Positions 7,596 to 63,689 are shown, numbered from the stretch's first letter. The stretch is 64,000 nt of DNA from Bauldia sp. (GCA_046349035.1 JAXMDC010000002.1:237093-301092), one strand, 5' to 3'. Program-made: numbers and translations. The notes: generated by a model from the sequence alone, not told the origin.

Positions 7596-7603
7596 CGGCG
7601 ACC

Positions 7604-10212: not shown

Positions 10213-10235
10213 GGCAGACTCCTGTGAATATGCAC
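10213..10235. promoter_or_regulatory. Near-palindromic MarR-type box TGTGAATATGCACACA, immediately upstream of the membrane-protein gene.
   Basis: Imperfect inverted repeat TGTG-N8-CACA around an ATAT core. A related box occurs again upstream of the adjacent marR-family gene. Confidence 0.4.
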
Positions 10236-10277
10236 ACATCATGGCGAACGAAACGCAGGCCGGGCCGCCGGCCCGGT

Positions 10278-10661
10278 CTAGGATCGGCCTTTTCGCGGGG
10301 TCTTGGCGGTGCGTGCGGAATGGCCGAGGCGGGCGAGGGTGGTCCGCAGCTCCGGCTCGCTTTCTTGCAGCAACCGCTCCTGGACGCGCTGCCAGGCGGG
10401 GTAGGCTTCGACCAGGAGCGCCTGGCCGGCGGCGGTCGGATGCAGCTCGTCGCGCCGTCCGCCCTCTTCGCGGCGGATGTCGACCAGGCCTTGCCGCACC
10501 AGCGGGCGGACGTTGCGCAGCATGGTGGTGCGCTCCATGCCGAGCGCCGCGGCGAGTTGCGCCAGCGGCACCGGCCCGCCGGCGGCAGCGGTCAGCAGCG
10601 GCAGCTGCGTGGCGCGGAGGCCGAAGGGCCGGAGTGCCTGGTCGAATTGCTGGGTGACCAC
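10278..10661 (-). CDS. MarR-family transcriptional regulator.
   Basis: 127 aa. LRATQLPLLTAAAGGPVPLAQLAAALGMERTTMLRNVRPLVRQGLV is a MarR wHTH. Confidence 0.8.
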   Translation of the reverse strand: MVTQQFDQALRPFGLRATQLPLLTAAAGGPVPLAQLAAALGMERTTMLRNVRPLVRQGLVDIRREEGGRRDELHPTAAGQALLVEAYPAWQRVQERLLQESEPELRTTLARLGHSARTAKTPRKGRS

Positions 10662-38191: not shown

Positions 38192-38269
38192 CGCCGGGCG
38201 CCGAAGAGACCCGGCGGGACGCCGCCCGGCGGCGTCCGCATATCCATGTTGCTCAAGGAGAATGTGGCT
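38192..38269 (+). ncRNA. ROSE-like RNA-thermometer 5'UTR of hsp20 (candidate).
   Basis: About 78-nt leader with stacked hairpins, including a perfect one: GGACGCCG-cccg-CGGCGTCC. The 3' end UUGCUCAAGGAGAAUGUGGCUAUG resembles the ROSE SD hairpin (UUGCU... GGAG... GGCUAUG). Confidence 0.4.
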
Positions 38270-38758
38270 ATGACGACCTTCGATCTTACTCCGCTGTGGC
38301 GTTCCACCGTGGGCTTCGAACGGCTCTTCGACCTCGTCGATAAGGGCCTGTTCGATGACGAGCAGAAGTACCCGCCCTACGACATCGTCCGCACCGGCGA
38401 GGACCGCTTTCGCATCACCCTCGCGCTCGCCGGCTGGCAGCCCGAGGACGTGACCGTCACCGAACACCAGAACGTGTTGACGGTGGCCGGCCAGCGGAAC
38501 GGCGCGGCCCGCGCCGACGAGGGCCGCGACTATCTCTATCGTGGCATCGCCTCCCGCGCCTTCGAGCGGCGCTTCACGCTCTCCGACTATGTCGTGGTCA
38601 AAGGCGCCACTTTCGACAACGGCATGCTGCACATCGACCTCGAGCGCCAGGTGCCCGAGGCGATGAAGCCGCGTCGCGTCGAGATCGGGCGCCAGGGCAC
38701 CACTCTGGCGGCGCCGCCCGGCAAGGCGGCCAAGCTGGAGCACGTCAGGGCCGCCTGA
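38270..38758 (+). CDS. Small heat-shock protein (Hsp20/alpha-crystallin family).
   Basis: MTTFDLTPLWRSTVGFERLFDLVD...YPPYDIVRTGEDRFRITLALAGW...GMLHIDLER: IbpA/HspA-like. Strong AAGGAGA SD 8 nt upstream. Confidence 0.85.
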   Translation: MTTFDLTPLWRSTVGFERLFDLVDKGLFDDEQKYPPYDIVRTGEDRFRITLALAGWQPEDVTVTEHQNVLTVAGQRNGAARADEGRDYLYRGIASRAFERRFTLSDYVVVKGATFDNGMLHIDLERQVPEAMKPRRVEIGRQGTTLAAPPGKAAKLEHVRAA

Positions 38759-48912: not shown

Positions 48913-49530
48913 ATGCGTTCTCGCGCGCTTTGGGCGCTGGTCGCGGCGGCCAATGTCGCGATCTACCTCCTCATGGTGGCCTCGACCGGCCGCACCGAAT
49001 TCACCTCGCGCCAGGCGCTCGCCTGGGGCGCCGATTTCGGGCCGCTGACGGTCGGCGAGGGCGAGTGGTGGCGGCTGCTGACCGCGACCTATCTCCACGG
49101 CAGCTTCAGCCACCTTCTCGGCAACATGATCTGCCTGTGGGCCTGGGGCCGCTTCGTCGAGATGCGCCTCGGCGCGCCGCGCTTCCTCCTCGCCTACACC
49201 GCCTGCGGCCTCGTCGCGAGCTTCGCCAGCGTCTCGTTCAACCCCGACGTCGTCAGCCTCGGCGCCTCCGGGGCGATCCTCGGCATGCTCGGCGTGATGG
49301 GAGGCCTGCGCCTCAAGGGTGACGCCAGCGTGCCGGCCAATGTCGTCTTCATCAACGCCATCTACTCGATCCCACTCGCCGTGCTGTCGCCGCAAGTCGA
49401 CTGGGTCGCCCACGCCGCCGGCTTTGCCGCCGGCATCCTCGCCGGGATGGTGCTCGGCCGCGCCACGCCGACCTACGCCCCGCCGCCCGAGGAGGAGGAG
49501 CCCACGGCGCCGTCGGGGCCGTGGGGGTAG
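48913..49530 (+). CDS. Rhomboid-family intramembrane serine protease.
   Basis: EWWRLLTATYLHGSFSHLLGNM..., GASGAILGMLG (GxSG catalytic Ser), AHAAGFAAG (catalytic His helix). Confidence 0.75.
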   Translation: MRSRALWALVAAANVAIYLLMVASTGRTEFTSRQALAWGADFGPLTVGEGEWWRLLTATYLHGSFSHLLGNMICLWAWGRFVEMRLGAPRFLLAYTACGLVASFASVSFNPDVVSLGASGAILGMLGVMGGLRLKGDASVPANVVFINAIYSIPLAVLSPQVDWVAHAAGFAAGILAGMVLGRATPTYAPPPEEEEPTAPSGPWG

Positions 49531-49571
49531 GGGGGCCGGTTGCCCGGCGCCCCGAATCGCCTAACGTCGGC

Positions 49572-50732
49572 GCCATGCGCACCACACTTGCCGCGTCTCC
49601 CACCCGCCGCGCCGTCCTTGCCGGAGCCGCCGCTCTTGCGCTGGCGCCGCGCCTCGCCGCGGCCCAGGTGCCCGACGCCAGCGCCGCCTTCGCGCTGCTG
49701 CCGCGCACTGCCGCGGCGGGCCTGACCGGCCTCCCGTCTGCCGCGCCGAAGGGTGCCGCCGCCGCCGAGGCGGCGCGGGCGCAGATGGCCGCCTATGCCC
49801 TCCGCTCGGCGCGGCGCTGGATCGACCGCGCGCCGCAGCCGATGCCGGTCGTCCACACCGAGGGGACGCTGCCGCATCAGGGCATCTACGACCAGTCGGT
49901 CGAGGCCAAGAAGGACTGGCAGGCGACGCGCGATCTGGCGCTCGGCTCGCGGCTTGCCGGCGACGGCGCGATGGCCGGCAAGACCGTGGCGCTGATCAAG
50001 GCCTGGCTCGGCGTCTACAAACCGAGCTTCAACCCGATCGACGAGACCGATCTCGACCGCCTGATGACAGCCTTCGACCTCCTCGAAGGCTCCGCCCGCG
50101 CGCCGGTCGCCGCCGACTACGGCAAGTTCCTCGCCGCGCTCGCCTCCGGCTATCTCGACCGCATGCCGACGCTGAAAGGCGGCACCGCCACCAACAACTG
50201 GCAAAGCCACCGCGTGAAGCTGGCAACCCTCGCCGCCTATGGCGCCGGCGACAAGGCGCTGATCGAGCGCGCCCGCGCCGCCTATAAGAAGCAGCTCGCC
50301 GACAATTTGCGGGCGGACGGCAGCGTCCTCGATTTCGCCGAGCGCGACGCCCTCCACTACGTCACCTACGATCTGGAGCCGCTGCTGATGGCGGCCCTTG
50401 CCGCCAAGACGCATGGCGAGGACTGGTACGGCGAGAAGAACGCCGCCGGCGTCGGCCTCAAGGAGGCGCTGCTGTGGCTCGCCCCCTACGCCGAGGGAAA
50501 GAAGACGCACCAGGAATTCGTCCGCTCGACCGTCGCCTTCGACGCCGCCCGCGCCAAGGCGGGCCTGCCGGGCTTTGCCGGCCTCTGGAACAAGGAGGAA
50601 GGGGAGGAGGTCTTCACCCTCGCCGCCCGCCTCGACGCAGCGTTCGCCCCGCTCGCCGCCGCACTTACCCCCGGCTTCACCGGCGACAAGCGCCCCCGCT
50701 CGCCCTGGCTTCACCTCACGCTGCCGGTGTGA
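49572..50732 (+). CDS. Tat-secreted polysaccharide-lyase family protein (alginate lyase/heparinase II/III-like alpha-toroid domain).
   Basis: Tat signal SPTRRAVLAGAAALALA. ...NNWQSHRVKL..., ...RDALHYVTYDLEPL..., resembling the N/H/Y catalytic blocks of Alginate_lyase (PF05426)-type proteins. Confidence 0.5.
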   Translation, partial: AMRTTLAASPTRRAVLAGAAALALAPRLAAAQVPDASAAFALLPRTAAAGLTGLPSAAPKGAAAAEAARAQMAAYALRSARRWIDRAPQPMPVVHTEGTLPHQGIYDQSVEAKKDWQATRDLALGSRLAGDGAMAGKTVALIKAWLGVYKPSFNPIDETDLDRLMTAFDLLEGSARAPVAADYGKFLAALASGYLDRMPTLKGGTATNNWQSHRVKLATLAAYGAGDKALIERARAAYKKQLADNLRADGSVLDFAERDALHYVTYDLEPLLMAALAAKTHGEDWYGEKNAAGVGLKEALLWLAPYAEGKKTHQEFVRSTVAFDAARAKAGLPGFAGLWNKEEGEEVFTLAARLDAAFAPLAAALTPGFTGDKRPRSPWLHLTLPV

Positions 50733-52091: not shown

Positions 52092-53348
52092 TCAGCGCTC
52101 GAGGAAGCGGAGCTGCTGGTTGCTCAGCCGGTCGTCCGGGTCGATTGCCTGCGCCTTGCGGAAATCGGCGATCGCTTGTGGGCGCAGGCCGAGCGCCGCA
52201 TAGGAGAGGCCGCGATTGCCGTAAGCCTCGACATAGGTCGGATGGAACTCGATCGCCTGGGTGAAGTCGGCGATGGCGCGCTCGCTGTCGCGCTTGGCCA
52301 CATAGGCCTTGCCGCGGGAATTGAGGGCGTTGAAGTCCTTGGGGTTGATGGCAATCGCCCGGTCGTAGTCGGCGATCGCCTCGTCGATGCCGCCGAGCGC
52401 CTGAAGCGCGTTGCCGCGATTCCAATAGGCGACGCCGTTCTTTGGATTGATGGCGATCGAGAAATCGTAATCGGCGATCGCTTTGCGGTAGTTGCGCAGG
52501 CCTTCGTAAGCGGCGCCGCGACAGTTGTAGCCGATGAAGTTTCCGGGATCGCGCCTGATGACCTCGCTGCAGTCGGCAACGGCGCGGTCGTACTGGCGAT
52601 TGTTGCTATAGGCGACGCCGCGCGAGCTGTAGAGCCACAGGAGGTTGGGATCGAGCCGGATCGCCTCGCTGTAGTCGGCGATGGCCGCCTCCCATCCGCC
52701 CTTCTTGGTGATCAGCCGTTGACGGAAATGGGCGTGCCCCCGCTGGCCGAAGGCGAACGCGGAAGAGGGGTCGAGGGTCACCGCCGCGGTGAGGTCGGCG
52801 ATCGCCTTGTCGAACGCGCCCTTTTCCGTCCACGCCATGCCGCGCCGGGCATGGGCCAGTCCGTCCCTGGCATCGATCTCGATCGCCGCTGAATGATCGG
52901 CAAGTGCCGCGTCGTAGTCGCGAAGGCCGAAGTGAGCGATGCCGCGATGGTCGTAGGCCGGGCCGTGCCTGGGATCGATCGCGATCGCTTGGCTGCAGTC
53001 GGCGATAGCCGCCGCGTGGTCCTCCTTGCTTTCATACGCCTCGCAGCGTTGCGCCAAGGCAGCGGCGCTCGCCGGGTCGAGCCGAATCGCCTCGCTATAG
53101 TCGGCAATGGCGCGTTCGTAGTCCTTTCGGTTGAACCACCCCCGGCCGCGGTTCCTGAAGGCTTCGGCGCGCACGCTTGCCGTTTCGCTTGCGTCCTCGG
53201 CGATCCGTCCGCAGGCGGCGTTGGCGGCCTCCGGCTTCCCGGCGCTGGCGGCGCACTCGGCCCGGTCGGCCGGTGTCGCGGCCGCTGCCGGCGTCGCGAG
53301 CAGGACGCTGAGACCGAGAAGCAGGACGCTCGATCCGCGCGCCGGCAT
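52092..53348 (-). CDS. Periplasmic TPR-repeat protein.
   Basis: 418 aa. Signal peptide, then about 10 TPR units each containing AIADY/AIADF/AVADC. Confidence 0.8.
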   Translation of the reverse strand: MPARGSSVLLLGLSVLLATPAAAATPADRAECAASAGKPEAANAACGRIAEDASETASVRAEAFRNRGRGWFNRKDYERAIADYSEAIRLDPASAAALAQRCEAYESKEDHAAAIADCSQAIAIDPRHGPAYDHRGIAHFGLRDYDAALADHSAAIEIDARDGLAHARRGMAWTEKGAFDKAIADLTAAVTLDPSSAFAFGQRGHAHFRQRLITKKGGWEAAIADYSEAIRLDPNLLWLYSSRGVAYSNNRQYDRAVADCSEVIRRDPGNFIGYNCRGAAYEGLRNYRKAIADYDFSIAINPKNGVAYWNRGNALQALGGIDEAIADYDRAIAINPKDFNALNSRGKAYVAKRDSERAIADFTQAIEFHPTYVEAYGNRGLSYAALGLRPQAIADFRKAQAIDPDDRLSNQQLRFLER

Positions 53349-53360
53349 GGCGATCCAAGC

Positions 53361-53945
53361 CTATTTCGGCTCGACGCCGCCAGCCCGCCGCCGCGCGGCG
53401 AGGGGCTTCATCACCCGCAGGTGCAGCAGCGTCGCGCTGGTGGCGAGCAGCACGGCGATGCAGAGGAACCACTTCGACGCCGGCTCCATCGCCCCCTCGA
53501 TCTGCACCGCATGCACCACCGTCGCCACCACCACGATCATCGCCACGCCGTTGTGGACGAGCCGCCAGGCCGAGTAGTCGAGACCGAGCCGGCGTCGGAG
53601 GACGACCAGGATCGCCGTCAGCACGACGCCCCACATCGCCGTCACGCCGTAGACCGAAAACGGCGTCGGCGCGACGAGGAGCAGTGCATCGCGCACGTCC
53701 TCAGGGCTGGCCAGATAGAGGCCGGCGACATGCAGCGCCACGCAGGCGAGGATGGCGACGCCGATGCGGCGATGCCAGAGCCGCTGCTGCAGCGGGCTGA
53801 GGCCCGGCAGGTACCGCGACCCGAGCAGCGGCTGGATCAGCAGCAGCGCCAGGCACACGATCCCGGCGGTGCCGCCAGCGATATAGACCGCCTCGCGATA
53901 GCCGAGCAGAGGGCTCGCCGCGGCGATCGCGACGGGCACCAGCAT
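53361..53945 (-). CDS. Ferric-reductase-like transmembrane component (YedZ/MsrQ-type heme-binding TM domain) family protein. Start approximate.
   Basis: Multiple TM helices with conserved His in helices (RLWHRRIGVAILACVALHVAGLY..., ...LVHNGVAMIVVVATVVHAV). Co-directional with the upstream Tat-secreted protein. Confidence 0.5.
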   Translation of the reverse strand: MLVPVAIAAASPLLGYREAVYIAGGTAGIVCLALLLIQPLLGSRYLPGLSPLQQRLWHRRIGVAILACVALHVAGLYLASPEDVRDALLLVAPTPFSVYGVTAMWGVVLTAILVVLRRRLGLDYSAWRLVHNGVAMIVVVATVVHAVQIEGAMEPASKWFLCIAVLLATSATLLHLRVMKPLAARRRAGGVEPK

Positions 53946-54024
53946 GGTGGCCAGAAGGGCGGACCAGACGATCAGCGCGACGGCGCGTCCTTGCCCCGCC
54001 GCGCGGCCCGGCTCCGACAATGGC

Positions 54025-54522
54025 TCAGGCCGGGGCGAGCACGAAATCGACGCTGAGCGAGGTGTCGGTCGCCTTGCCGAGCAGCGGCCGCAGGAACACG
54101 GTCTTAAACGCCTTGTCGTCGTAGGCGAGGTGCGCGTGCGGCTGACCAAGGCTCGGCACGATCTGGGGCATTTCCAGCCGGAAGGTGCCATCGGCGGCGG
54201 TGAGCACGCTGCCGTGGTTGCGCGGGTCGGGTTCGCTGCCGACGGTGGTTGCCGCCCAGATCTGGATGCGCTGGCCCTTGAGCGGCGTGCCGTCGCCGGC
54301 TTTGAGCACCCGCCCGGAGACCACGAAGCCGGTTCCGAGGCGCTCGACCAGCGGCGCGCCGGGCCGGTAGTTGTTGGCGCCGCCCGGCATCGTCTCGGTC
54401 GGCGCGAAGGCGCCCGCCGCCAGCAGCGGCGAAATCGACATCAGCGGTCCGCCGACGAGGGCCGCGCCGGCCGAACCGGCGCCGAGGAGGAAGGAACGGC
54501 GGTCGTAGAAGCGAAGGCTCAT
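54025..54522 (-). CDS. Tat-secreted small periplasmic protein with an intradiol-dioxygenase-like/Ig-like beta-sandwich domain.
   Basis: Tat signal MSLRFYDRRSFLLGAGSAGAALVG. VSGRVLKAGDGTPLKGQRIQIWAATTVG...SVLTAADGTFRL resembles the dioxygenase/carboxypeptidase-regulatory fold. Confidence 0.45.
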   Translation of the reverse strand: MSLRFYDRRSFLLGAGSAGAALVGGPLMSISPLLAAGAFAPTETMPGGANNYRPGAPLVERLGTGFVVSGRVLKAGDGTPLKGQRIQIWAATTVGSEPDPRNHGSVLTAADGTFRLEMPQIVPSLGQPHAHLAYDDKAFKTVFLRPLLGKATDTSLSVDFVLAPA

Positions 54523-54827
54523 CGGGAGGTCTCCATTCTTCCAGCTGTTTCGTCTGGCAGCTGCTTCGTCTGGCTGCCGGTTCGTCCCGCCCTGCGGCTC
54601 GGCACCGTTTAACGAATGGGGGCCAAACCCGTTGACGGAATCCAGCCACAAACTCTCGCCGAGGTCCATCGAAAATGTCAGCGGCCCCGTCAACGCGCAA
54701 CGCTCACGACGGTTTCCCGCACCGCTGTCCGCCCGCCCTCCGGGCGCCCCGCCGCCCCCGCCGCTTCATCTGGCGTTCAGGTTGCGCGGTGTTACACTCG
54801 CTCAACCCAGCCGCTTGGGAGGGTCGC

Positions 54828-56615
54828 ATGGTGGGGATCGCGCGCCGCGTTGTCGTTGCCCTGTCGCTGGCCGCCGCGTTGCTCGCGGCGCCGGCCTTCG
54901 CCGACGACAAGACCGATTGCGACCGCGGCTCGCCGGATGCCCGCATCAAGAGCTGCACCGTCCTCATCACCATGGGGCTGCTGAAGGGGCACGACCTCGC
55001 CTCGATCTTCCTCAACCGCGGCACCGCCTACGGCCAGACCAATCGGCACGACGCGGCGCTCGCCGACTTCAACCGCGCCCTTCAGCTCTGGCCGGATTGG
55101 TGGGTCGCCCAGTCGGCTCGCGGCTACGTTTATTCGATGAAGGGGCAATACGACCTCGCCATCGCCGACTTTGGCCGCGTGATCCAGACCCAGCCGCGCG
55201 AGGCCGACGCCTATCTCGGCCGGGCCGATGCCTATCGCGGCAAGGGCCAGGCGGACCTCGCCATCGCCGATTTCACCAAGGCGATCGCGCTGAAGCCCGA
55301 CGCGGTGTTCGCCTTCGCCGGCCGTGCCGCGGCCTATCACAGCCTCAAGTCCTACGATCTCGCCATCGCCGATCTGACGCGGGCGATCCGCCTCAACCCG
55401 GATGTCGCGGCGTTCTTCGTTCGTCGCGGCGATGCCTACCGCGAGAAGTCGCAGACCGATCTCGCCCTTGCCGACTATGGCCAGGCGATCCGCCTCGCTC
55501 CGACCAGCGAGACCGCCTTGGCGAGCCGCGCCAGCCTCTACCGCGCCAAGGGCGATCACGACCGCGCCATCGCCGATTACGATGCGGCGATCGCGCTGAA
55601 GGCGGACTTCGGCACTGCGTTCCTTGGGCGCGGCCTCTCCTACGAGGCCAAGGGCGACCAGGCCAACGCTCTGGCGGACCTGGTCAATGCCGAGAAACTG
55701 CTTCCCGCCGACAGCCCGTTCCGCGCCGACGCCGCAAATCGCGTCGCCGCCCTGCGGGTCGCCGGCGCCGATGCGGCGCGCCTTGCCGCGCTGCAGGCTG
55801 CCGGCGCCGCTCCGCCTCCGGTCGCGGTCGCCGCCGCGCCCGCCGCTGTCGCCGCCGCTCCGGCCGCAGGGCCGCCTCCGGCCGCGGCGCCGATCCCGCT
55901 CGGGCGGCGCGTCGCCCTCGTCGTCGGCAATGGCGCCTATACCGGCGTGCCGGCGCTGCCCAACCCGACCGGCGATGCCGGCCTCGTCGCCGCCTCGCTG
56001 AAGGCGGTCGGCTTCGACGTCCGCGTCGTCAACAATGCCGGCCGCGACGACTTCCTGAAGGCGCTCCACGCCTTCCAGGGTCAGGCCGATGGCGCCGACT
56101 GGGCGGTGGTCTATTTCGCCGGCCACGGCATCGAAATGGGCGGCACCAACTTCCTCGTCCCGGTCGATGCCAAGCTCGCCGAGGACCGCGACGTTCCCGA
56201 CGAGACGGTGTCGCTCGACCGCGTGCTTGCTGCCGTCGACGGCGCGCGCGGCCTGAAGATGGTGGTGCTCGACGCCTGCCGTAACAACCCGTTCGTCGCC
56301 TCGATGAAGCGGAGCGGCGCATCGAGCCGCGCCGTCGGGCGGGGCCTCGCCCTGGTCGAGCCGGCGCAGGCAACCCTTGTCGCCTACGCCGCCAAGGCCG
56401 GCAGCGTCGCCTCCGACGGCGATGCCGGCAACAGCCCCTTCGCCAAGGCCTTCGCCCAGCGCGTCGGCGAGCCGGGCGTCGAAATCGGCAAGATGTTCCG
56501 CCTCGTCCGCGACGACGTCCTTGCCGCGACCGGCCAGAAGCAGGAGCCCTTCGTCTACGGCTCGCTCCCCGGCACCGACTTCTTCTTCAAGCCGCCGACC
56601 GTCGGCCAGCGCTAG
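54828..56615 (+). CDS. TPR-repeat / caspase-family (peptidase C14, orthocaspase) two-domain periplasmic protein.
   Basis: Signal peptide, then a TPR sensor domain homologous to the 12675 protein (DDKTDCDRGSPDARIKSCTVLITMG, AIADF repeats). Then an Ala/Pro linker. Then a caspase domain carrying the His-Cys dyad: YFAGHGIEMGGTNFLVPVDA and MVVLDACRNNPF. Confidence 0.8.
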   Translation: MVGIARRVVVALSLAAALLAAPAFADDKTDCDRGSPDARIKSCTVLITMGLLKGHDLASIFLNRGTAYGQTNRHDAALADFNRALQLWPDWWVAQSARGYVYSMKGQYDLAIADFGRVIQTQPREADAYLGRADAYRGKGQADLAIADFTKAIALKPDAVFAFAGRAAAYHSLKSYDLAIADLTRAIRLNPDVAAFFVRRGDAYREKSQTDLALADYGQAIRLAPTSETALASRASLYRAKGDHDRAIADYDAAIALKADFGTAFLGRGLSYEAKGDQANALADLVNAEKLLPADSPFRADAANRVAALRVAGADAARLAALQAAGAAPPPVAVAAAPAAVAAAPAAGPPPAAAPIPLGRRVALVVGNGAYTGVPALPNPTGDAGLVAASLKAVGFDVRVVNNAGRDDFLKALHAFQGQADGADWAVVYFAGHGIEMGGTNFLVPVDAKLAEDRDVPDETVSLDRVLAAVDGARGLKMVVLDACRNNPFVASMKRSGASSRAVGRGLALVEPAQATLVAYAAKAGSVASDGDAGNSPFAKAFAQRVGEPGVEIGKMFRLVRDDVLAATGQKQEPFVYGSLPGTDFFFKPPTVGQR

Positions 56616-56715
56616 CGAGCCGCGCTCGATCCCCAAGCCGTGCGCGCCGCCCTCTTGCGTCGCGGCGGCGGCTGCGCTTCTGATAGGCGCGGGGGTATTG
56701 GGGCTCGTGTTCTAA

Positions 56716-57621
56716 ATGCGGAGAAGTCTTGCGGCGCTCGGCGGCGCCGTCGTGGCGTTGTGGGCAGGCGGAGCCGAGGCGCAGCGCGCCGCCCCAGCGG
56801 CGCGGACGCCCGCCGCCGTAACCTGGAAGGGCGAAGCGGTTCAACAGGGGCGGACCGGCACCTTTCGCGTCGAGGTGACGCTGATGGGGACGGGCGGCAT
56901 CACCCGCTATCCCGAACAGTCCTGCACCGGCACGCTGAAGCGGATCGGCGTCAGCGGCGCCTATTCGTTCTTCGCCGAGGAGATCACGCAAGGGCGTTAC
57001 GACGCCGCCACCAATGCCGGTTGCTTCGACGGCACGGTGACGCTGAACGAGACTGGCGGCAAGCTGCACTATGGCTGGTTCGGCGTTACCTCCGGCGAGA
57101 CGGTGATCGCCGGTGCGGTGCTGACGAAAGACGGTGCGACTTCGGCCGGCACGCCGGTCGCCGCGGCAACCGTCGATGCGCCGCCCACCGCCGCGGCCCC
57201 GCCCACCCCGCCGGCGGCACCGGCAAGGGCGCCCCAGGCTCCGGCCGCGACGCCGGCAGGCCGCGGCAACGCTGCCACCGGCAATGCCGCCGCGACCGGC
57301 GCCGTCGCACCGGCCCCGCTGGCCGCGGGCGGTGGCGCGAAGCTGCAACCGGACGAGATCCAGTTGATCTTCGGCCCCGGCTCGCCGATCGCCGCGCTCG
57401 ACCCTGCCGGACGGAAATCGACCTTGGTCTTCCGCGGCGATGGCACCGCCAGCGCGTCGCCCGCCTCCGGCCCGGCGCTGACCGGCACTTGGCGCTTCTC
57501 CGCCGACGGCTACTGCTCCAAATGGAGCGGCGCCGGCGAGCGCTGCTTCACCGTCCGCCGCGCCGCCGCCGGCTTCGACGTCCTCGACGCCGACAACCGG
57601 CTGATCGCCCACTGGGAGTAG
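56716..57621 (+). CDS. Secreted hypothetical protein immediately downstream of the TPR-caspase gene.
   Basis: 301 aa. Signal peptide (AVVALWAGGAEAQ), two Cys-containing globular segments separated by a Pro/Ala linker. Confidence 0.55.
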   Translation: MRRSLAALGGAVVALWAGGAEAQRAAPAARTPAAVTWKGEAVQQGRTGTFRVEVTLMGTGGITRYPEQSCTGTLKRIGVSGAYSFFAEEITQGRYDAATNAGCFDGTVTLNETGGKLHYGWFGVTSGETVIAGAVLTKDGATSAGTPVAAATVDAPPTAAAPPTPPAAPARAPQAPAATPAGRGNAATGNAAATGAVAPAPLAAGGGAKLQPDEIQLIFGPGSPIAALDPAGRKSTLVFRGDGTASASPASGPALTGTWRFSADGYCSKWSGAGERCFTVRRAAAGFDVLDADNRLIAHWE

Positions 57622-57767: not shown

Positions 57768-58637
57768 CTACTCCCCGCGGCCGATGGCGCGGGCGCTCTC
57801 GATGACGCCGTGCGCGTCGTGCCCGGTCTTCAGCCAGAAGAGCAGCAGCGCCGGCAGGCCGGCGGCGAGGATCAGCGCCTGCAGCATCAGCCCGACGAGG
57901 CCGGTGAGGGCGAGGAGGGCCAGCTGAACCGCGCCGAAGGCGAGGGAGACGAGGAGCGGCGAGAGCACCACCGATGCCGCGGCGACGAAGGTCCACTTCA
58001 GCGGGTTCGTCTCGCCGGAGCCGAAGATCGTGCCGACGATGCCGAAGAGGCTGAGGGCGACGAACAGCACCATCAGCAGGAAGCCGAAGGTGTCGCCGCC
58101 GGTGAGGCGCTCTTCGAGCACCGCGAAGATCGCGTCAGGCAGGCGCGGCAGGATCTGCAGCCCGGCGATCGGCGCGAGCAGGATCGCCGGCCCTTCCGTG
58201 GTGCCGGGGCAGAGGAGGACGATGTCGCACGCCTCCGCCCAGCGCTTGCAGATCGGCCCGAAGCCGGCCGAGGCCAGCATGGCGTCGCTGAGCCCGCCCA
58301 TCGCCGGCCGCGACGCGAATTCCACGCAGCCGCTATTGGCCGCCCGCGGCTCGCAGACGACGAGGTTGCTGTAGGTGCAGGATTCGAAGCGCTTCATGAA
58401 GGCGTCGGAGAGGCCGGCAATCGACACCGAGCCGATGGCGCTCGCTGCCGCCTCGTCGGCCGCCTTTATTCGGGAGAACACCTCTTTATGCTCCGAGGCG
58501 ATCAGCACCAGCGTGGTCGCGAACAGGAGAAACGGCAGAATCCAGCGGCGGAACAGGCCGCCGCCCGGCATCCGGCCATGCAGCGCCGGTCCGCCAAGCG
58601 AAAGGCCGCCATCGGCGGTCGCAGGAATGTCGCTCAT
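57768..58637 (-). CDS. Integral membrane protein, hypothetical.
   Basis: 289 aa. N-terminal TM, Cys-rich central soluble part, 4 C-terminal TM helices. Confidence 0.5.
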   Translation of the reverse strand: MSDIPATADGGLSLGGPALHGRMPGGGLFRRWILPFLLFATTLVLIASEHKEVFSRIKAADEAAASAIGSVSIAGLSDAFMKRFESCTYSNLVVCEPRAANSGCVEFASRPAMGGLSDAMLASAGFGPICKRWAEACDIVLLCPGTTEGPAILLAPIAGLQILPRLPDAIFAVLEERLTGGDTFGFLLMVLFVALSLFGIVGTIFGSGETNPLKWTFVAAASVVLSPLLVSLAFGAVQLALLALTGLVGLMLQALILAAGLPALLLFWLKTGHDAHGVIESARAIGRGE

Positions 58638-58762: not shown

Positions 58763-59683
58763 CTAGCTTGGGCCGGCCGGCGGCTGATGCGCCAGTGCCG
58801 CGGTGACGATGTCGTTGATCGGCGCGGTCAGGCCGGTCGGCTTGACGACTAGTGGGGTCGGGCGCGTCACGCTCGCGGCAAGGCGGTTGACGAACCACAG
58901 CGGGCCTTGCGGCATCGCTGCCCGGCGGCCGGTCTTGAGCGCCACCGCCAAGCCGCCGCCCTGCGCCCGCGACACCTGCGCCGTGGCGGCGATGGCGTCC
59001 CAGGGGATACGTGCCTTGCTCAGACGCGCGTCGAAGATGCCGTCGCCGTCGATGGCGACCACCGTCGACGTGTCGCGGCTCGCAAGCGCATAGGTGAACG
59101 CCGCGAAAACGAAGACGAGGCCGAAGGCGGCGAACATGGCCGCGAGCAGCACGCGGCCGAACGGCGCCATGTCGCCGAAGCCCCGGAGGGCAATGGCGGT
59201 GGCGAGCCACAGCGAGAGCGCCGCCATGACCAGCGCGGCGGGCGCCGCGATGAGCGTCCAGTTCCGGTTCCAGCCTGCGGCGAAGGCGGGCGGCGCGGCC
59301 GGCTCATGCGTCAAGGCGAACTCCGCCCCGAGTTCGGCGCGAAGCGCCGCGGCGAGCGCCGCGACATCGGCGGCGTAGGCGGTCGCCGCCTCGGGATAGC
59401 CGAACAGCGCCGGCGGCTCCTTTTTTTTGGAGGTCTTGCGGAGTTGGCCGGCGGTCGCCTCCTCGTAGCGCTCGATCAGCGCCGCCGCCTGCGCCTTCAC
59501 CGCACCGGACAGCGGCAGCTGCTTGAGCCCGACCGCGTAGCCGAAGCGCCGCCGCGCCGCCTCGTTCTCCGCCCACAGGCAAACGCCGCCCTCGGCGGCA
59601 AGCGCCAGGCGCAGGGCATAGGTCGGAGCGGGAGAGGCGGCCATCGCCGGGGGGAGTAGCCGGACGGCGGGGGAGTTGTCCAA
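58763..59683 (-). CDS. Hypothetical membrane-associated protein. Contains a T8 homopolymer (59420-59427) encoding KKK.
   Basis: 306 aa. Soluble N-terminal domain, then 2-3 TM helices, then a C-terminal soluble region. Confidence 0.45.
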   Translation of the reverse strand: MDNSPAVRLLPPAMAASPAPTYALRLALAAEGGVCLWAENEAARRRFGYAVGLKQLPLSGAVKAQAAALIERYEEATAGQLRKTSKKKEPPALFGYPEAATAYAADVAALAAALRAELGAEFALTHEPAAPPAFAAGWNRNWTLIAAPAALVMAALSLWLATAIALRGFGDMAPFGRVLLAAMFAAFGLVFVFAAFTYALASRDTSTVVAIDGDGIFDARLSKARIPWDAIAATAQVSRAQGGGLAVALKTGRRAAMPQGPLWFVNRLAASVTRPTPLVVKPTGLTAPINDIVTAALAHQPPAGPS

Positions 59684-59766
59684 TCGGCTCTGGTGAACCG
59701 ATCCTTCCGGCGCGCCGGGGACGGGGACCGAAACCCGGGCGTCACGCGCCGCGGCCTAAGCCGGCG

Positions 59767-60138
59767 TTAGTCCTTAGCCGCAAGCCAAAACAGGAACCAT
59801 GCGATCGCGAAAGGCACACTGTTTGCGACACCCGCCATGGCCAGCGGCAAAAGGGAGCCGGCGATGAATGCCCGCGGGGCCGACGCGAAGATCAGCAGTC
59901 CGTAGAACGCACCGACAAGCAAGACGAAGAAGCCAACAAGGTACAGAGGGAGCCTACCAAGACGCCGCAACAGCGGTGCACGCTCTGCACCGACTTCGCC
60001 CTCCAACGCCTTCTCGTCATCCGACTGGTTCCGCCGCTTAGCGAAGAGGGAGAGCAGCGCAATTGCGCAGGCGAGCCCGATCCATGTCGCGTGGCGCGAG
60101 GCGTCGAGCGGGACGAACCGTCTCCCCGGAACCGACAT
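59767..60138 (-). CDS. Membrane protein, hypothetical. Lower-GC patch; start uncertain.
   Basis: Start placed at MSVPGRRF to avoid a 66-nt overlap with the upstream gene. 3 TM helices. Local GC drop at 59767-60060. Confidence 0.35.
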   Translation of the reverse strand: MSVPGRRFVPLDASRHATWIGLACAIALLSLFAKRRNQSDDEKALEGEVGAERAPLLRRLGRLPLYLVGFFVLLVGAFYGLLIFASAPRAFIAGSLLPLAMAGVANSVPFAIAWFLFWLAAKD

Positions 60139-60227
60139 GGCGGCCGCGCGTAGGTCTACTAGAACGGCTGCCACGCCGAACGCGGCGAGCGCCCGCCGCA
60201 GCGGGCTGAGCGCTCGCCAGCGTTGGA

Positions 60228-61544
60228 TCACCCCGCTTCCCCCGCCGCGATCCAGGTCAGCACCGCCTCGGAGAAGCCGTTGACGCGGCGCCACGCGCCG
60301 TGTCCGACGCCGTGCTGGTAGGAGGCGACGTTGATGACGATGCCGTTGCCTTTCGGCGCCGGCACGTCGTCATGCGCCTGCTCGTCGGTGAAGACGATGA
60401 GGCGCGTCCTGGCCTTGTCGACCTCGCCGACCGCCTTGCCGAGATAGGTGCCGCCATGCGGCTGGCTGGCGACGATTGCATCGCGGAGGGCAAAGCCGCG
60501 CCGCGGCGGCACCTTCTTCACCTTGTCGGAGAAGGTGAACACCTCGACGCTCTCGCACACCTCGCGGGCGAGGATGGCGAGGCCACACGCGGCTTCGAGC
60601 CGCGTCATCTCCGACTTCGCCGAGAGCGGCGAGTCCATCGAGCCGGAGACGTCGATGAGGAGCCGCGTCGGCCCGGCCAGGCGCTCCTGGCCGGCCAGCG
60701 ACTTCAGCATCGCCGCCTCAAGTTCGCTTTCGAAGTCCGGCGCGTAGCGTGCCGCTGTGATGAAGCGGTAGGGCAGGACCCGTTCGCTTTTCATCGCCGC
60801 GATCGCTTCGGCGATCGTCTCGCGCGGCACTTCCGCCGCCTGCATCAGGCGAAGGTTGCGCAGCAGCGCAAGGCCGCCGAGCTTCTTCTCGGCGATCAGC
60901 CGCTCGAAGGTGGCGCGCTTGTCCTTGCCGCCGGAGAGCGCCACTTCCCAGGTATCGGGCGGCGGCAGCGTGCCGTCGACGAGCTGCTTCCAGATCGCCT
61001 CCTGCGCCTTGTCCTTCGGCTTGGCGTGGACCAGGAACAGCACGTCCTTGAGGCGCACCGCCCCGTCGCGGTCGTACTTGGCAAGCTGATAGGCGTCGAA
61101 CTTGGCGAGCGCCTTGGCAAGGCCCTTCTTGACCTGCGCCGACACCGGCTGGCGCTTGCGCTGCTGCATCGGCCCGAGCGCCTCCGCCCAGTAGATGGCG
61201 AGGAACTCGGTCAGTTCGTCCGGCCGCTGGATCACTTTCTCCAGCGCTTCGGCGACAAGGCCGCGATGGGTCGCATGCCGCGCCATCTCGCGCACCACCA
61301 GCAGCGGCGCGTGTCGGAGCTTCATCGCCTCGCGCGCCTCGACGGCGAGCGCCAGGCACACCTCCGGCTCGACCTGCGGCACCAGCGCGGCGATCCGCTC
61401 GGCGATGGCGACGCCGTCTTCGTAGAACTGATCCTCCCAAAGGAGACAGTTCATCAGCGTCCGCTTGAGCTCGTCCGCCGGCGCGAAGCCGCGAGCGCGC
61501 CCGCCCTCATGCGTCCGCGGGCGAAGGAGCTTGTTGAGGCTGAC
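60228..61544 (-). CDS. TROVE-domain / von Willebrand A (MIDAS) protein, a Ro60/Rsr-like RNA-binding protein candidate.
   Basis: The N-terminus (THEGGRARGFAPADELKRTLMNCLLWEDQFYEDG...LRHAPLLVVREMA) follows the Ro60 TROVE pattern. C-terminal vWA with DxSxS MIDAS (LIDVSGSMDS) and ...RLIVFTDEQ. CAGGAGA SD upstream of MVSL. Confidence 0.6.
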   Translation of the reverse strand, partial: VSLNKLLRPRTHEGGRARGFAPADELKRTLMNCLLWEDQFYEDGVAIAERIAALVPQVEPEVCLALAVEAREAMKLRHAPLLVVREMARHATHRGLVAEALEKVIQRPDELTEFLAIYWAEALGPMQQRKRQPVSAQVKKGLAKALAKFDAYQLAKYDRDGAVRLKDVLFLVHAKPKDKAQEAIWKQLVDGTLPPPDTWEVALSGGKDKRATFERLIAEKKLGGLALLRNLRLMQAAEVPRETIAEAIAAMKSERVLPYRFITAARYAPDFESELEAAMLKSLAGQERLAGPTRLLIDVSGSMDSPLSAKSEMTRLEAACGLAILAREVCESVEVFTFSDKVKKVPPRRGFALRDAIVASQPHGGTYLGKAVGEVDKARTRLIVFTDEQAHDDVPAPKGNGIVINVASYQHGVGHGAWRRVNGFSEAVLTWIAAGEAG

Positions 61545-61886
61545 CATGGCGGTCTCCTGTTCTGTCGGGATGGAGGATAGGGGAAAACGGCGCGCGCGGG
61601 AGGGCGGCGGCGAAGGGCGGGTGTCGCGCGGCGCCGGCCGCGTGGCGTAGCGGCCTTTCCCGACACCGAGGAACCTGGCTGCTCCTTCGCGGGTACGCGG
61701 GTCTGGCGCGGGACGCGCAAACGCCAACCGACCGGCTGCCATGCCCCCCTCTGACTTGCGTCAAGGCCGCCGGGCTGGCTCTCCTTCTTGAAACGGTAAG
61801 CGAATCGTCGGTTGGTCCGGTTCGCCGGCGGCGCGACGCGCCGGTCGGCGGTTGGAACCAAACACCGCGAAGGGAGCTGTCAAGGA

Positions 61887-63689
61887 GTGGAACTCGCCAA
61901 CGGCGCCGCCGCCTTTGCCTATAAGGACCTGCTGCTGTTTCTTGCCACCGCCGCGGTGATCGTGCCGCTGGTCGGGCGGCTGAAGGTGCCGCCGCAGCTG
62001 GGGTTCCTGGTCGGGGGCCTGGCGCTCGGCCCCTTCGGCCTCGGCGCGCTCGCCAGACAAGTGCCGTGGCTCTCGGCCGTCGCCATCATCGACCTCGACG
62101 AAATCGCCCCGCTTGCCGAGTTTGGCGTCGCCTTCCTTCTGTTCGTCATCGGCCTCGAACTCTCGCTCGAGCGCTTGCAGCGCATGCGGAAACTCGTTTT
62201 CGGCATGGGCAGCCTGCAGGTGGTCGTCACATCGGCTGCCCTCGGCCTGATCGCCCTGCTGCTTGGCCAGTCGCCGGCGTCGGCTGCGGTGCTGGGGAGC
62301 GCCCTGGCGATGTCCTCGACCGCGCTGGTGCTGCCCTCGCTCGCCGAAGGACGGCGCGTCAACTCGGCGACCGGCCGCGCCAGCTTTGCCGTGCTGCTGT
62401 TCCAGGATCTTGCCGTCGCGCCGCTTCTGTTCATGGTGTCGCTCCTCGGCACCACCGAAGGCGCCGGGCTCGGCACCGGCATCCTCTACGCCCTGGCGCC
62501 GGCGGTGATCGCGCTCGTCGTGCTGGTGGTCGCCGGGCGGCTTGTCCTGCGCCCGCTGTTCCAACTCGCCGCCGCCACCAAGCGCAACGAGGTCTTCGTC
62601 GCCGCCTGCCTCCTCGTCGCCATCGGCACCGGCCTTCTCGTCGCCGCCGCCGGCCAGCCGATGGAACTCGGCGCCTTCATCGCCGGCCTGCTGCTCGCCG
62701 AGACCGAGTACCGCCGCCAGGTCGAGGTGACGATCCAGCCCTTCCAGGGTCTGCTGCTCGGCCTCTTTTTCGTCTCGGTCGGTGCCAGCCTGGACCTTTC
62801 GCTGCTGATCCGCGAGCCGCTGACGATCCTGGCGATCCTCGCCGGTTTCCTCGCGGTGAAGGCGGCGATCGCCTATCCGCTCGGTCTCGCCTTCCGCCTC
62901 TCGCGCTCGACCGCCGGCGAGGTGGCGCTGATGCTGGCGCCATCCGGCGAATTCGCGCTGGTGCTGATCGGCGCCGCCCTGGCGGTCAAAGTGGTGCCGG
63001 CCGGCCTCGGCTCGCTCGTCCTTGTCGCGGTCACGGTGTCGATGTTCGCCGTGCCGGTGATCGCCCGCCTGACCGAAGAATATGTCCGCCGCCCGGCCTA
63101 CGACGAAGCCGCGCTCGCCGGCCTCGCGCCGGCGCCGCATGACGGCCCGGCGCGGGTGATCGTCGTCGGCTTCGGCCGCGTCGGCGAACTGGTCGGGCAG
63201 ATGCTGAGCATGCACGGCATCCCCTATCTCGTCGTCGACGCCAATCCCGCGGTGGTCACCGCCAAGCGCGACGGCGGCATCCGCGCTTTCTACGGCGATG
63301 CCACGCAAGTCGAGCTGCTGCGGATCTGCGGCATCGCCAACGCCCTCGCACTCGCCGTCACCATGGACGACCCGGCAGCCACCGAATTGGTCGTCACTGC
63401 CGCCCGGGCCGAGCGGCCTGACATCCCGATCATCGCCCGCGCCCGCGACGCCTCGCACGCGCAAAAGCTCTACGGTCTCAGCGTCACCGACGCCGTGCCG
63501 GAAAACATCGAGGCGAGCCTCCAGCTGTCCGAGGCGCTGCTTGCCGGCATTGGCGTGCCGATGGGCAAGGTCATCGCCTCGGTGCACGAGAAGCGGGCCG
63601 AACTCCGCGGCCTCCTCAAGGCGCCGCCGGGCAGTCCGGAACGCCGCGCCGTCCGCCCTGCCACCCGCCCGCCAGGGGGTGCGGCCTAG
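61887..63689 (+). CDS. kefB: CPA2-family monovalent cation/H+ antiporter with C-terminal RCK/TrkA-N domain (KefB/KefC-like). GTG start.
   Basis: 12 TM helices with Na_H_Exchanger motifs (FGVAFLLFVIGLELSLERL, GEFALVLIG), then the Rossmann VIVVGFGRVGELVGQML...PYLVVD. AAGGAG SD before the GTG. Confidence 0.85.
   Translation: MELANGAAAFAYKDLLLFLATAAVIVPLVGRLKVPPQLGFLVGGLALGPFGLGALARQVPWLSAVAIIDLDEIAPLAEFGVAFLLFVIGLELSLERLQRMRKLVFGMGSLQVVVTSAALGLIALLLGQSPASAAVLGSALAMSSTALVLPSLAEGRRVNSATGRASFAVLLFQDLAVAPLLFMVSLLGTTEGAGLGTGILYALAPAVIALVVLVVAGRLVLRPLFQLAAATKRNEVFVAACLLVAIGTGLLVAAAGQPMELGAFIAGLLLAETEYRRQVEVTIQPFQGLLLGLFFVSVGASLDLSLLIREPLTILAILAGFLAVKAAIAYPLGLAFRLSRSTAGEVALMLAPSGEFALVLIGAALAVKVVPAGLGSLVLVAVTVSMFAVPVIARLTEEYVRRPAYDEAALAGLAPAPHDGPARVIVVGFGRVGELVGQMLSMHGIPYLVVDANPAVVTAKRDGGIRAFYGDATQVELLRICGIANALALAVTMDDPAATELVVTAARAERPDIPIIARARDASHAQKLYGLSVTDAVPENIEASLQLSEALLAGIGVPMGKVIASVHEKRAELRGLLKAPPGSPERRAVRPATRPPGGAA

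What the first reader, a model, noticed from the sequence alone, without database searches (positions are those of the whole stretch)
54025..57621. Periplasmic TPR-caspase (orthocaspase) with a secreted downstream partner; a stand-alone paralog of its TPR sensor domain lies 42 kb away
The 54828..56615 protein joins a signal peptide and TPR array to a peptidase-C14 caspase domain with an intact His/Cys dyad (GHG...DACRN). Its first ~330 aa are clearly paralogous to the separately encoded TPR protein at 12675..13724. Both share the same Cys-containing N-terminal box DD(R/K)TDC..G.PDA.I..C and the same AIADF repeat signature. A third TPR protein with the same repeat flavour lies at 52092..53348. 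A secreted Cys-containing protein of unknown function is encoded 100 nt downstream. Immediately upstream sit a Tat-secreted beta-sandwich protein and a heme-type ferric-reductase TM protein. Secreted or periplasmic bacterial caspases with substrate-recruiting repeat domains are poorly characterised. The domain-sharing paralog suggests a decoy/sensor relationship.
Basis: partly seen in the sequence, partly recalled or inferred. Interest (0 to 1): 0.6.

Follow-up and report, generated by a model that had tools for sequence, protein, structure and literature searches.

The report
Exported TPR-caspase protease, common family member
The gene is a real, apparently active, exported caspase-like protease with a TPR protein-binding arm. 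It belongs to a very large, already catalogued family of soil alphaproteobacteria, and neither the proposed "partner" gene nor the proposed "decoy" paralog relationship holds up.

Summary
The sequence features are all present. ORF 54828..56615 encodes, in order: a Sec signal peptide, a two-Cys N-terminal box, about 8 TPRs, an Ala/Pro linker, and a Peptidase_C14 domain. The domain has an intact His433/Cys484 dyad and three conserved acidic S1 residues. The window comes from a Bauldia sp. MAG.

The architecture is not unusual.
- All 120 best database homologs carry TPR plus C14.
- At least 594 relatives of the caspase domain occur in species-representative genomes (Bradyrhizobium, Labrys, Roseiarcus and others).
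- TPR was listed as a leading accessory domain of prokaryotic caspase homologs in 2012.

The Cys box and the "AIADF" repeat flavour are family-wide: 117 of 120 homologs have the box. The stand-alone TPR protein at 12675 is not a specific paralog. Dozens of foreign TPR-caspases are closer to each protein than the two are to each other.

The downstream 301-aa protein is a secreted tandem of two small 8-stranded beta-barrels from two families that have no Pfam entry. Neither barrel occurs within ±10 kb of any of 80 related caspase loci. One metagenomic protein does fuse the N-barrel to a caspase.

Verdict: a new member of a known kind, most likely a periplasmic Arg/Lys-specific processing protease. 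Its biochemical role is untested. Interest is low.

The parts
54828..54902 (+). Sec-type signal peptide of the TPR-caspase (MVGIARRVVVALSLAAALLAAPAFA, AFA|DD cleavage site)
   Evidence: Read from the sequence. GGGAGG Shine-Dalgarno 5 nt upstream of the ATG. 116 of 120 homologs have an N-terminal hydrophobic segment, against 1 of 120 in an internal control region. No lipobox and no Tat motif.
54903..54965 (+). N-terminal two-Cys box (DDKTDCDRGSPDARIKSC; Cys31, Cys43), a cap before the first TPR
   Evidence: These are the only Cys residues besides the catalytic one. A C-x(10-19)-C box, mostly x11-13, is present in 117 of 120 homologs. A disulfide is inferred, not shown.
54966..55727 (+). TPR array, about 8 repeats
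   Evidence: Pfam TPR_1 E 2e-43, TPR_11, TPR_8 and TPR_2. The A-x-A-D-[FYL] motif recurs at residues 76, 110, 144, 178, 212, 247 and 281, a 34-35-residue period.
55728..55904 (+). End of the TPR arm followed by an Ala/Pro-rich flexible linker
   Evidence: Low-complexity AAPPPVAVAAAPAAVAAAPAAGPPPAAAP sequence. No Pfam match.
55905..56597 (+). Peptidase_C14 (caspase-fold) catalytic domain
   Evidence: PF00656 E 5e-32, 111.8 bits against cut-off 21.4. 57-62% identical to the caspase domains of homologs, with 75 invariant columns. Closest solved relatives are MALT1 paracaspase chains, E 7e-8.
56124..56126 (+). Catalytic His433 (YFAGHG)
   Evidence: Aligned to the MALT1 YYAGHG motif, which holds His415 by my count along the MALT1 sequence. 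Invariant in A3. Coordinates.
56277..56279 (+). Catalytic Cys484 (LDACRN). The S1 acidic residues are Asp383 (55974..55976), Asp482 (56271..56273) and Asp530 (56415..56417).
   Evidence: Aligned to the MALT1 LLDMCRK motif (Cys464, with Asp462 two residues before) and to the Asp of 'PLVD' (Asp365) (residue numbers are my own count). All three Asp are invariant in A3. Asp530 matching MALT1 Glu500 comes from my manual extension of the alignment (inference).
56716..57621 (+). Downstream secreted protein (301 aa): signal peptide, N-barrel (56815..57135), Ala/Pro linker, C-barrel (57331..57618)
12675..13724 (+). Stand-alone secreted Cys-box TPR protein (349 aa) of the same broad family
   Evidence: TPR_1 E 6e-43. 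34% identity and E 1e-44 to the caspase's TPR arm. Not its closest relative.
52092..53348 (-). Second stand-alone secreted Cys-box TPR protein (418 aa). Its start lies 12 nt after the stop of the Ferric_reduct gene.
   Evidence: TPR_1 E 5e-69. 36% identity and E 1e-33 to the caspase's TPR arm. The caspase is its worst match of 122.
54025..54522 (-). Tat-signal protein (165 aa as called) with a sub-threshold Dioxygenase_C-like match, divergent from the caspase gene.
   Evidence: MSLRFYDRRSFLLGAG motif. Dioxygenase_C E 1.3e-4, below the cut-off, and TAT_signal E 0.008. Gene call.
53361..53945 (-). Ferric_reduct-family membrane protein (194 aa as called)
   Evidence: PF01794, 39.7 bits against cut-off 28. 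Gene call.

Best explanation
ORF 54828..56615 is an ordinary member of a very large family of exported caspase-fold (MEROPS C14, orthocaspase/metacaspase-like) cysteine proteases of Hyphomicrobiales.

Proposed sequence of events:
1. The protein is exported by Sec and its signal peptide is cut after AFA.
2. The two N-terminal cysteines form a disulfide that caps the first TPR helix.
3. The ~8-repeat TPR solenoid binds a protein partner or substrate.
4. A ~45-residue Ala/Pro tether lets the C-terminal C14 domain reach the bound protein and cleave after Arg or Lys, using His433/Cys484 and the acidic S1 pocket Asp383/Asp482/Asp530.

The most likely role is processing or turnover of periplasmic or envelope proteins. 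This mirrors the logic of other periplasmic TPR-plus-protease pairs such as BepA and NlpI-Prc.

The TPR-only genes at 12675 and 52092 are independent members of the same module family. The downstream two-barrel protein is most likely a neighbour and not a dedicated partner.

Shown here: domain composition, catalytic residues, export signal, and the size and layout diversity of the family.

Inferred: the disulfide, P1 specificity, periplasmic (as opposed to extracellular) residence, TPR-mediated substrate recruitment, and the physiological role.
For: - Domains and scores.
- Dyad and two S1 Asp aligned to MALT1; these and Asp530 are invariant across homolog caspase domains.
- Start codon and Shine-Dalgarno.
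- Only three Cys in the protein, namely the box pair and the catalytic Cys.
- Export is a family trait: 116 of 120 homologs have an N-terminal hydrophobic segment, against 1 of 120 in the internal control.
- Every one of the 67 main caspase proteins listed from the related genomic loci begins with an N-terminal region containing a hydrophobic segment.
- Family size: all 120 top hits carry TPR plus PF00656, and at least 594 caspase-domain relatives occur in species genomes.
- The same caspase subfamily is fused to WD40, TPR, Peripla_BP_6, PG_binding_1 or FGE-sulfatase. This fits a common protease head with interchangeable binding modules.
- The TPR, WD40, Sel1 and FGE-sulfatase architectures and the N-terminal helix/signal peptide were already catalogued in PMC3501461.
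- Basic P1 specificity is the rule for non-caspase C14 enzymes (PMC5756287).
Against: - No experiment exists for any member of this exported alphaproteobacterial subfamily, so activity, specificity and substrates are all inferred.
- The signal peptide was judged by eye and by a hydropathy heuristic, not by a trained predictor.
- The neighbourhood gives no functional clue. Contexts differ among homologs: multi-caspase/DUF4384/OmpA clusters in two loci and unrelated genes in two others.
- The BepA and NlpI-Prc analogy rests on my own knowledge and on architecture only.
Confidence: 0.7

Rival explanations
1. The caspase and the downstream two-barrel protein form a dedicated pair. The secreted barrel protein would act as a periplasmic inhibitor, a substrate, or a substrate adaptor of the protease, co-transcribed across the 100-nt gap.
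For: - Same strand, 100-nt gap, and no terminator-like site between them.
- Both are exported.
- The N-barrel is fused to a caspase domain of the same subfamily in one metagenomic protein, P0198.
Against: - 0 of 80 related caspase loci (±10 kb) encode either barrel.
- No relative of the 301-aa protein was confirmed in species-representative genomes.
- Stand-alone N-barrel genes inspected on contigs have no caspase nearby.
- Only 1 of about 116 N-barrel proteins is a caspase fusion. The others are fused to TIR, a kinase-like domain or M23.
- The Shine-Dalgarno of the downstream gene is weak.
Confidence: 0.12
2. The stand-alone TPR proteins (12675, 52092) are decoys or competitors that share the caspase's sensor domain and regulate it by competing for the same ligand.
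For: All three share a signal peptide, the Cys box and the AIADF-type TPRs, at 34-36% identity.
Against: - The similarity is not specific. The caspase ranks 58th of 122 for the 12675 protein, that protein ranks 75th of 122 for the caspase arm, and the 52092 protein ranks 120th.
- The box and the repeat flavour are family-wide.
- The 52092 gene sits in its own operon-like arrangement with the Tat-signal and Ferric_reduct genes.
- The 12675 gene is 42 kb away.
Confidence: 0.04
3. It is a cell-death or anti-phage executor, like cytoplasmic orthocaspase/CHAT systems or the type III-E TPR-CHAT 'Craspase'.
For: - TPR plus caspase-fold composition.
- A weak CHAT-family signal in some homologs.
- A generic hit to the PADLOC 'caspase' model, E 2e-8.
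Against: - The signal peptide places the protease outside the cytoplasm.
- No defence, Cas, NACHT or toxin genes appear among the called neighbours.
- The family is chromosomal and multi-copy in free-living soil bacteria, with binding modules typical of the periplasm such as PG_binding and Peripla_BP.
Confidence: 0.05
4. It is a non-catalytic scaffold (pseudo-protease) that uses the caspase fold only for binding.
For: Pseudo-orthocaspases with substituted dyads are common in bacteria (PMC6426788 abstract; PMC5756287).
Against: His433, Cys484 and all three S1 Asp are present here and invariant across the aligned homologs.
Confidence: 0.03

Closest known systems
Prokaryotic C14 caspase homologs (orthocaspases / 'bacterial metacaspases') with TPR accessory domains, as catalogued by Asplund-Samuelsson et al. 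2012 (PMC3501461)
   Same: - Peptidase_C14 domain with a His/Cys dyad.
- TPR_1 and TPR_2 are among the four commonest accessory domains.
- Abundant in Alphaproteobacteria, especially rhizobia.
- An N-terminal helix that is likely a signal peptide.
   Different: - A review says accessory domains are commonly C-terminal to the p20 domain. Here the TPR arm is N-terminal.
- No member of this exported subfamily has been studied biochemically.
MaOC1 of Microcystis aeruginosa, named by a 2017 review as the only biochemically characterised orthocaspase at that time (PMC5756287; PMC7935541)
   Same: Prokaryotic C14 enzyme with a His-Cys dyad. Basic (Arg/Lys) P1 specificity is expected from the acidic pocket.
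   Different: - MaOC1 is cyanobacterial and cleaves the antitoxin of a toxin-antitoxin module encoded next to its gene (PMC7935541 abstract), which implies a cytoplasmic enzyme. No TPR arm is described for it.
- The window protein is exported and TPR-tethered.
- Sequence relatedness between the two was not tested here.
MALT1 paracaspase (closest solved structures by sequence; 3v4o, 3v55, 3uo8 and others)
   Same: 35.8 bits, E 7e-8 over the p20 core. The catalytic His and Cys and two S1 Asp align.
   Different: MALT1 is a eukaryotic cytosolic signalling protease with death and Ig domains. Only the N-terminal ~130 residues of the domain align. There is no orthology.
Periplasmic TPR-plus-protease systems: BepA (M48 protease with a TPR domain) and NlpI-Prc (TPR adaptor plus tail-specific protease)
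   Same: - Working logic: a TPR solenoid in the periplasm positions a protease on envelope substrates.
- Weak NCBIfam TPR-level similarity to NlpI in all three TPR proteins and to BepA in the two stand-alone TPR proteins, far below the cut-offs.
   Different: The catalytic classes differ (metallo and serine against cysteine C14). There is no homology beyond generic TPR. The analogy comes from my own knowledge and was not tested.
Type III-E CRISPR 'Craspase' TPR-CHAT (Csx29)
   Same: A TPR array fused to a caspase-fold protease.
   Different: Craspase is cytoplasmic, bound to gRAMP/Cas7-11, and RNA-activated. The window protein has a signal peptide, and no cas gene families appear among the called neighbours.

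Membership tests
Peptidase_C14 (caspase fold; MEROPS clan CD, family C14) | Significant match to the family profile over the whole catalytic domain | tested here: met
   PF00656 E 5.3e-32, 111.8 bits against gathering 21.4, profile positions 1-227 of 233.
Peptidase_C14 (caspase fold; MEROPS clan CD, family C14) | Catalytic His-Cys dyad in the conserved motifs | tested here: met
   His433 in YFAGHG and Cys484 in LDACRN align to the MALT1 YYAGHG and LLDMCRK motifs, which hold His415 and Cys464 by my count. Both are invariant in 9 homolog domains.
Metacaspase/paracaspase/orthocaspase branch (basic P1 specificity) | Acidic S1 pocket | tested here: met
   Asp383 and Asp482 align to MALT1 Asp365 and Asp462. 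Asp530 is invariant, and I aligned it manually to Glu500 (inference).
Metacaspase/paracaspase/orthocaspase branch (basic P1 specificity) | Actual cleavage after Arg/Lys; autoprocessing | not testable with these tools
   Needs an enzyme assay with the mature protein and a C484A control.
Orthocaspase (prokaryotic, p20 only, no metacaspase-type p10 with a Ca-binding loop) | Absence of a canonical p10 domain | tested here: inconclusive
   The domain is compact at ~240 aa. The Pfam profile, which spans p20 plus p10, is matched to position 227 of 233, but the MALT1 alignment covers only the first ~130 residues. No structure was predicted for this domain.
TPR repeat proteins | Tandem 34-residue repeats matching TPR profiles | tested here: met
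   TPR_1, TPR_2, TPR_8 and TPR_11 at E 1e-29 to 1e-43. Motif period of 34-35 residues, seven times.
Sec-exported (periplasmic or secreted) proteins | N-terminal n-h-c signal peptide with an AXA cleavage site | tested here: met
   MVGIARR-VVVALSLAAALLAA-PAFA|DD. Hydropathy test gives 116 of 120 homologs positive against 1 of 120 in the internal control. No dedicated predictor was available, and final localisation is untested.
   The N-barrel and C-barrel HMMs hit 0 of 80 loci (±10 kb) carrying caspase relatives. The HMMs were built from their own families.
Specific paralogy of the caspase TPR arm and the 12675 protein | Each is the other's closest relative compared with homologs from other organisms | tested here: not met
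   Ranks 75 of 122 and 58 of 122 by BLASTP bit score against 120 foreign TPR-caspases.
Type III-E Craspase (TPR-CHAT/Csx29) | Cytoplasmic protein encoded next to gRAMP/Cas7-11 | tested here: not met
   A signal peptide is present. The called neighbours within about ±6 kb show no Cas families. PADLOC gives only a generic caspase hit.

The most novel reading that the evidence does not exclude
The downstream secreted protein is a dedicated trans-acting regulator of the exported caspase, either an inhibitor or a substrate adaptor. Its N-terminal barrel would represent a previously unnamed extracytoplasmic module. Bacteria would attach that module, in cis or in trans, to caspase, TIR, kinase-like and M23 effector domains as a sensor or targeting unit.
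Probability: 0.1. Interest if true: 0.5.

Novelty: new member of a known kind. Interest (0 to 1): 0.2.

Why it matters
Exported caspase-fold proteases are numerous in soil and symbiotic alphaproteobacteria, often several per genome, and none has a known substrate. A clean description of one member (export signal, disulfide-capped TPR arm, tether, intact Arg/Lys-type active site) gives a ready construct design for the first biochemical study of this class.

This locus does not itself reveal a new system. The architecture has been catalogued since 2012, and the two more exciting ideas, the decoy paralog and the dedicated partner, fail the comparative tests.

One minor by-product is that the downstream gene defines two small beta-barrel families that are absent from Pfam.

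Tried and rejected
1. A word-indexed search with the 301-aa protein found only itself. The full HMMER scan of representatives was needed to find relatives.
2. A profile search with the N-barrel alignment for an architecture census returned only 27 small proteins with no Pfam annotation, so no census of fusions was possible.
3. The search for related loci with the N-barrel alignments A1 and A2 failed because no stretch was conserved enough. The same tool with the single 301-aa protein found no confirmed relative in species genomes.
4. I compared the downstream protein with the OmpA-domain protein that follows TPR-caspases in Labrys. There is no similarity.
5. I clustered all flanking genes of the 80 loci to look for a recurrent partner. 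The only clusters found in 19 or more loci lie antisense within or close to the caspase genes and look like spurious ORFs. The remaining clusters occur in at most 13 loci each and probably reflect local synteny among related genomes; their composition was not checked.
6. A terminator/promoter scan and an RNA fold of the 100-nt gap were uninformative, with z = -0.21 for the fold.
7. A joint alignment of the full-length downstream protein misaligned the C-barrel homologs, so the two barrels were modelled separately.
8. The afdb50 fold library was unavailable.
9. Pfam scans of all members of both barrel families gave nothing above threshold. DUF4859 appeared in 3 of 32 members at best E 0.0012.
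10. An Rfam search for a Y RNA next to the TROVE gene found nothing.


Full report
**Source and gene models.** The 595-aa product of 54828..56615 (+) is identical to a protein annotated "MAG: tetratricopeptide repeat protein [Bauldia sp.]" on a 1.13-Mb contig. The window is 70.6% G+C. GC3 of 0.84-0.92 supports the following gene calls:
- the caspase gene;
- the downstream gene 56716..57621;
- the TPR genes 12675..13724 and 52092..53348 (-);
- the two minus-strand genes upstream.

The long overlapping ORFs in other frames have GC3 of 0.64-0.67 and are spurious. The caspase start at 54828 is preceded by GGGAGG at a 5-nt spacing. The possible 51-codon extension back to 54675 has non-coding-like composition.

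**Checking the observation.** Pfam finds TPR_1 (E 2e-43, six stretches) and Peptidase_C14 (residues 360-579, E 5e-32, 111.8 bits against a cut-off of 21.4) in the protein.
- The N-terminus, MVGIARRVVVALSLAAALLAAPAFA|DD, is a classical Sec signal peptide.
- The mature protein has only three cysteines: Cys31 and Cys43 in the N-terminal box, and Cys484.
- The A-x-A-D-[FYL] signature recurs seven times with a 34-35-residue period.
- The closest solved relatives by sequence are MALT1 paracaspase chains (E 7e-8). YFAGHG aligns with MALT1 YYAGHG and LDACRN with LLDMCRK, the motifs that hold the catalytic His415 and Cys464 (residue numbers by my own count along the MALT1 sequence).
- Asp383 and Asp482 align with the S1 residues Asp365 and Asp462.
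- These residues and Asp530 are invariant in an alignment of nine homolog caspase domains. I aligned Asp530 to MALT1 Glu500 by hand.

The dyad claim is therefore correct, and the enzyme is predicted to be active with basic P1 preference. That preference is the rule for non-caspase C14 enzymes (PMC5756287). The similarities to the 12675 protein (34% identity, E 1e-44, N-box included) and to the 52092 protein (36%, E 1e-33) are real. The window holds only one caspase domain.

**How common the architecture is.** All 120 best database hits (33-62% identity in the best local alignment) carry both TPR families and PF00656. Named sources include Labrys, Lichenifustis, Pseudorhodoplanes and Xanthobacteraceae.

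The best 80 are 49-61% identical in the caspase domain. They come mostly from Bradyrhizobium, with Labrys, Roseiarcus, Mesorhizobium, Rhizobium, Tardiphaga, Afipia and Rhodopseudomonas also represented.

In these loci the same caspase head appears in two layouts, both behind an N-terminal region with a hydrophobic segment. In one, an N-terminal accessory module precedes the caspase. In the other, the caspase comes first and is followed by a C-terminal extension of roughly 130-650 residues. Sampled accessory modules are WD40, TPR, Peripla_BP_6, PG_binding_1 and FGE-sulfatase.

This repertoire was already described in the 2012 census of prokaryotic caspase homologs. There, TPR_1 (7%) and TPR_2 (5.8%) were among the four commonest accessory domains, Alphaproteobacteria were among the richest groups, and N-terminal helices were interpreted as probable signal peptides (PMC3501461). 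A crude hydropathy test finds an N-terminal hydrophobic segment in 116 of 120 homologs against 1 of 120 in an internal control region. Export is therefore a family trait.

**The "paralog / decoy" idea.** The N-terminal box is not private to this genome. A C-x(10-19)-C box, mostly x11-13, follows the signal peptide in 117 of 120 homologs, typically as ADD..C....D..I.AC(T/S)R.I. In a BLASTP ranking against the 120 foreign TPR-caspases plus the window's own proteins:
- the caspase is only the 58th-best match of the 12675 protein;
- the 12675 protein is the 75th-best match of the caspase's TPR arm;
- the 52092 protein ranks 120th.

The three genes are thus independent members of a large module family (signal peptide, Cys box, AIADY-type TPRs). 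They are not the product of a recent domain-sharing event. The 52092 gene starts 12 nt after the stop of the Ferric_reduct gene, which follows the Tat-signal gene on the minus strand. That suggests it serves a different system.

**The downstream "partner".** The 301-aa protein has no Pfam, NCBIfam or PADLOC match. A full HMMER scan of 1.84 billion representatives gave 297 hits. These resolve into two families:
- proteins matching residues ~25-138 (N-barrel);
- proteins matching residues ~196-300 (C-barrel).

Most are stand-alone secreted proteins of 120-190 aa. Only one other protein, P0122 (257 aa, 40% identity), has both domains. AlphaFold2 models are confident (pLDDT 93.9 and 90.6) and each shows an 8-stranded up-and-down barrel.

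Each barrel has an invariant Cys pair. No member of either family reaches a Pfam threshold.

Four N-barrel proteins are fusions:
- P0170, to a TIR domain;
- P0123, to a kinase-like domain;
- P0259, to a Peptidase_M23 domain;
- P0198, to a caspase domain of the same subfamily.

In the TIR and kinase-like fusions the barrel lies after a predicted membrane helix, so it is an extracytoplasmic module. The P0198 fusion gene lies inside its contig.

Against a dedicated partnership:
- HMMs of both barrels hit none of the 80 related caspase loci with ±10-kb flanks.
- The four homolog neighbourhoods inspected show either multi-caspase/DUF4384/OmpA clusters, one also carrying a serpin gene, or unrelated metabolic genes.
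- Stand-alone N-barrel genes on longer contigs have no caspase nearby.
- Clustering of all flanking genes found no recurrent partner.
- The 100-nt gap has no terminator-like site and no significant structure, so co-transcription is possible but unproven.

**Mechanism.** The best-supported reading is an exported, TPR-tethered, Arg/Lys-directed cysteine protease acting on periplasmic or envelope proteins, with the TPR arm providing partner or substrate selection.
- Shown: domain order, catalytic and S1 residues, export signal, and the modularity of the family.
- Inferred: the Cys31-Cys43 disulfide, specificity, residence in the periplasm as opposed to release outside the cell, TPR-mediated recruitment, and the physiological role.
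- The analogy to BepA and NlpI-Prc is architectural and rests on my own knowledge.
- A cytoplasmic cell-death or defence role of the Craspase or orthocaspase-TA type is disfavoured by the signal peptide and by the absence of defence genes nearby.
- A pseudo-protease role is disfavoured by the intact, invariant active site.

**Novelty and verdict.** This is a new member of a known kind. The gap in knowledge is real. The orthocaspase papers retrieved from the searched literature deal with cyanobacterial enzymes, and none describes an exported alphaproteobacterial caspase. But the gap applies equally to thousands of homologs, and nothing about this locus makes it more tractable. The one reading with some novelty left is that the two-barrel protein is a trans-acting regulator. 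It rests on a single fusion protein and fails the co-occurrence test, so I give it about 10%.

Noticed in passing
window ~60228..61547 (-) (L003 11935..13254): A TROVE-domain (Ro60/Rsr-like) gene lies about 3.6 kb downstream of the caspase locus. Bacterial Ro orthologs usually sit next to Y-RNA-like genes (my own knowledge), but Rfam found nothing in 59500..63000 even at E <= 1.
   Followed up: partly
window 38194..38276 (+): A ROSE thermoregulator element (RF00435, 52.9 bits against gathering 45) is the only Rfam hit in the window. It presumably lies upstream of a small heat-shock gene.
   Followed up: no
window 52092..54522 (-): An operon-like trio: a Tat-signal protein with a sub-threshold Dioxygenase_C-like match, a Ferric_reduct-family membrane protein, and a Cys-box TPR protein starting 12 nt after the Ferric_reduct stop. 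This may be a periplasmic redox module with a TPR adaptor. Its conservation elsewhere was not checked.
   Followed up: partly
window 56815..57135 (N-barrel) and 57331..57618 (C-barrel): Two small secreted 8-stranded beta-barrel families absent from Pfam, each with an invariant Cys pair. The N-barrel is also found fused to TIR, kinase-like, M23 and caspase domains, after a predicted membrane helix in the TIR and kinase-like fusions (P0170, P0123, P0259, P0198). That pattern suggests an extracytoplasmic sensor or targeting module.
   Followed up: partly
L001 (Labrys okinawensis) 1..7977 and L002 (JGI metagenome) 1335..10463: In two relatives the TPR-caspase lies in a cluster with further Peptidase_C14 genes, DUF4384 proteins and an OmpA-domain protein. 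L002 also has a serpin gene. This recurrent multi-caspase island is absent from the window.
   Followed up: partly
window 49521..50732 (+) and upstream: An Alginate_lyase-family gene (E 1e-33) is preceded by a rhomboid-family gene. Two small genes with no family match lie between the lyase gene and the TPR gene.
   Followed up: no
window 57768..58637 (-) and 58763..59644 (-): Two genes of 289 and 293 aa downstream of the locus have no significant family match in Pfam or NCBIfam (Pfam was run only on the first) and none in PADLOC. Their hydrophobic sequences suggest membrane proteins.
   Followed up: no
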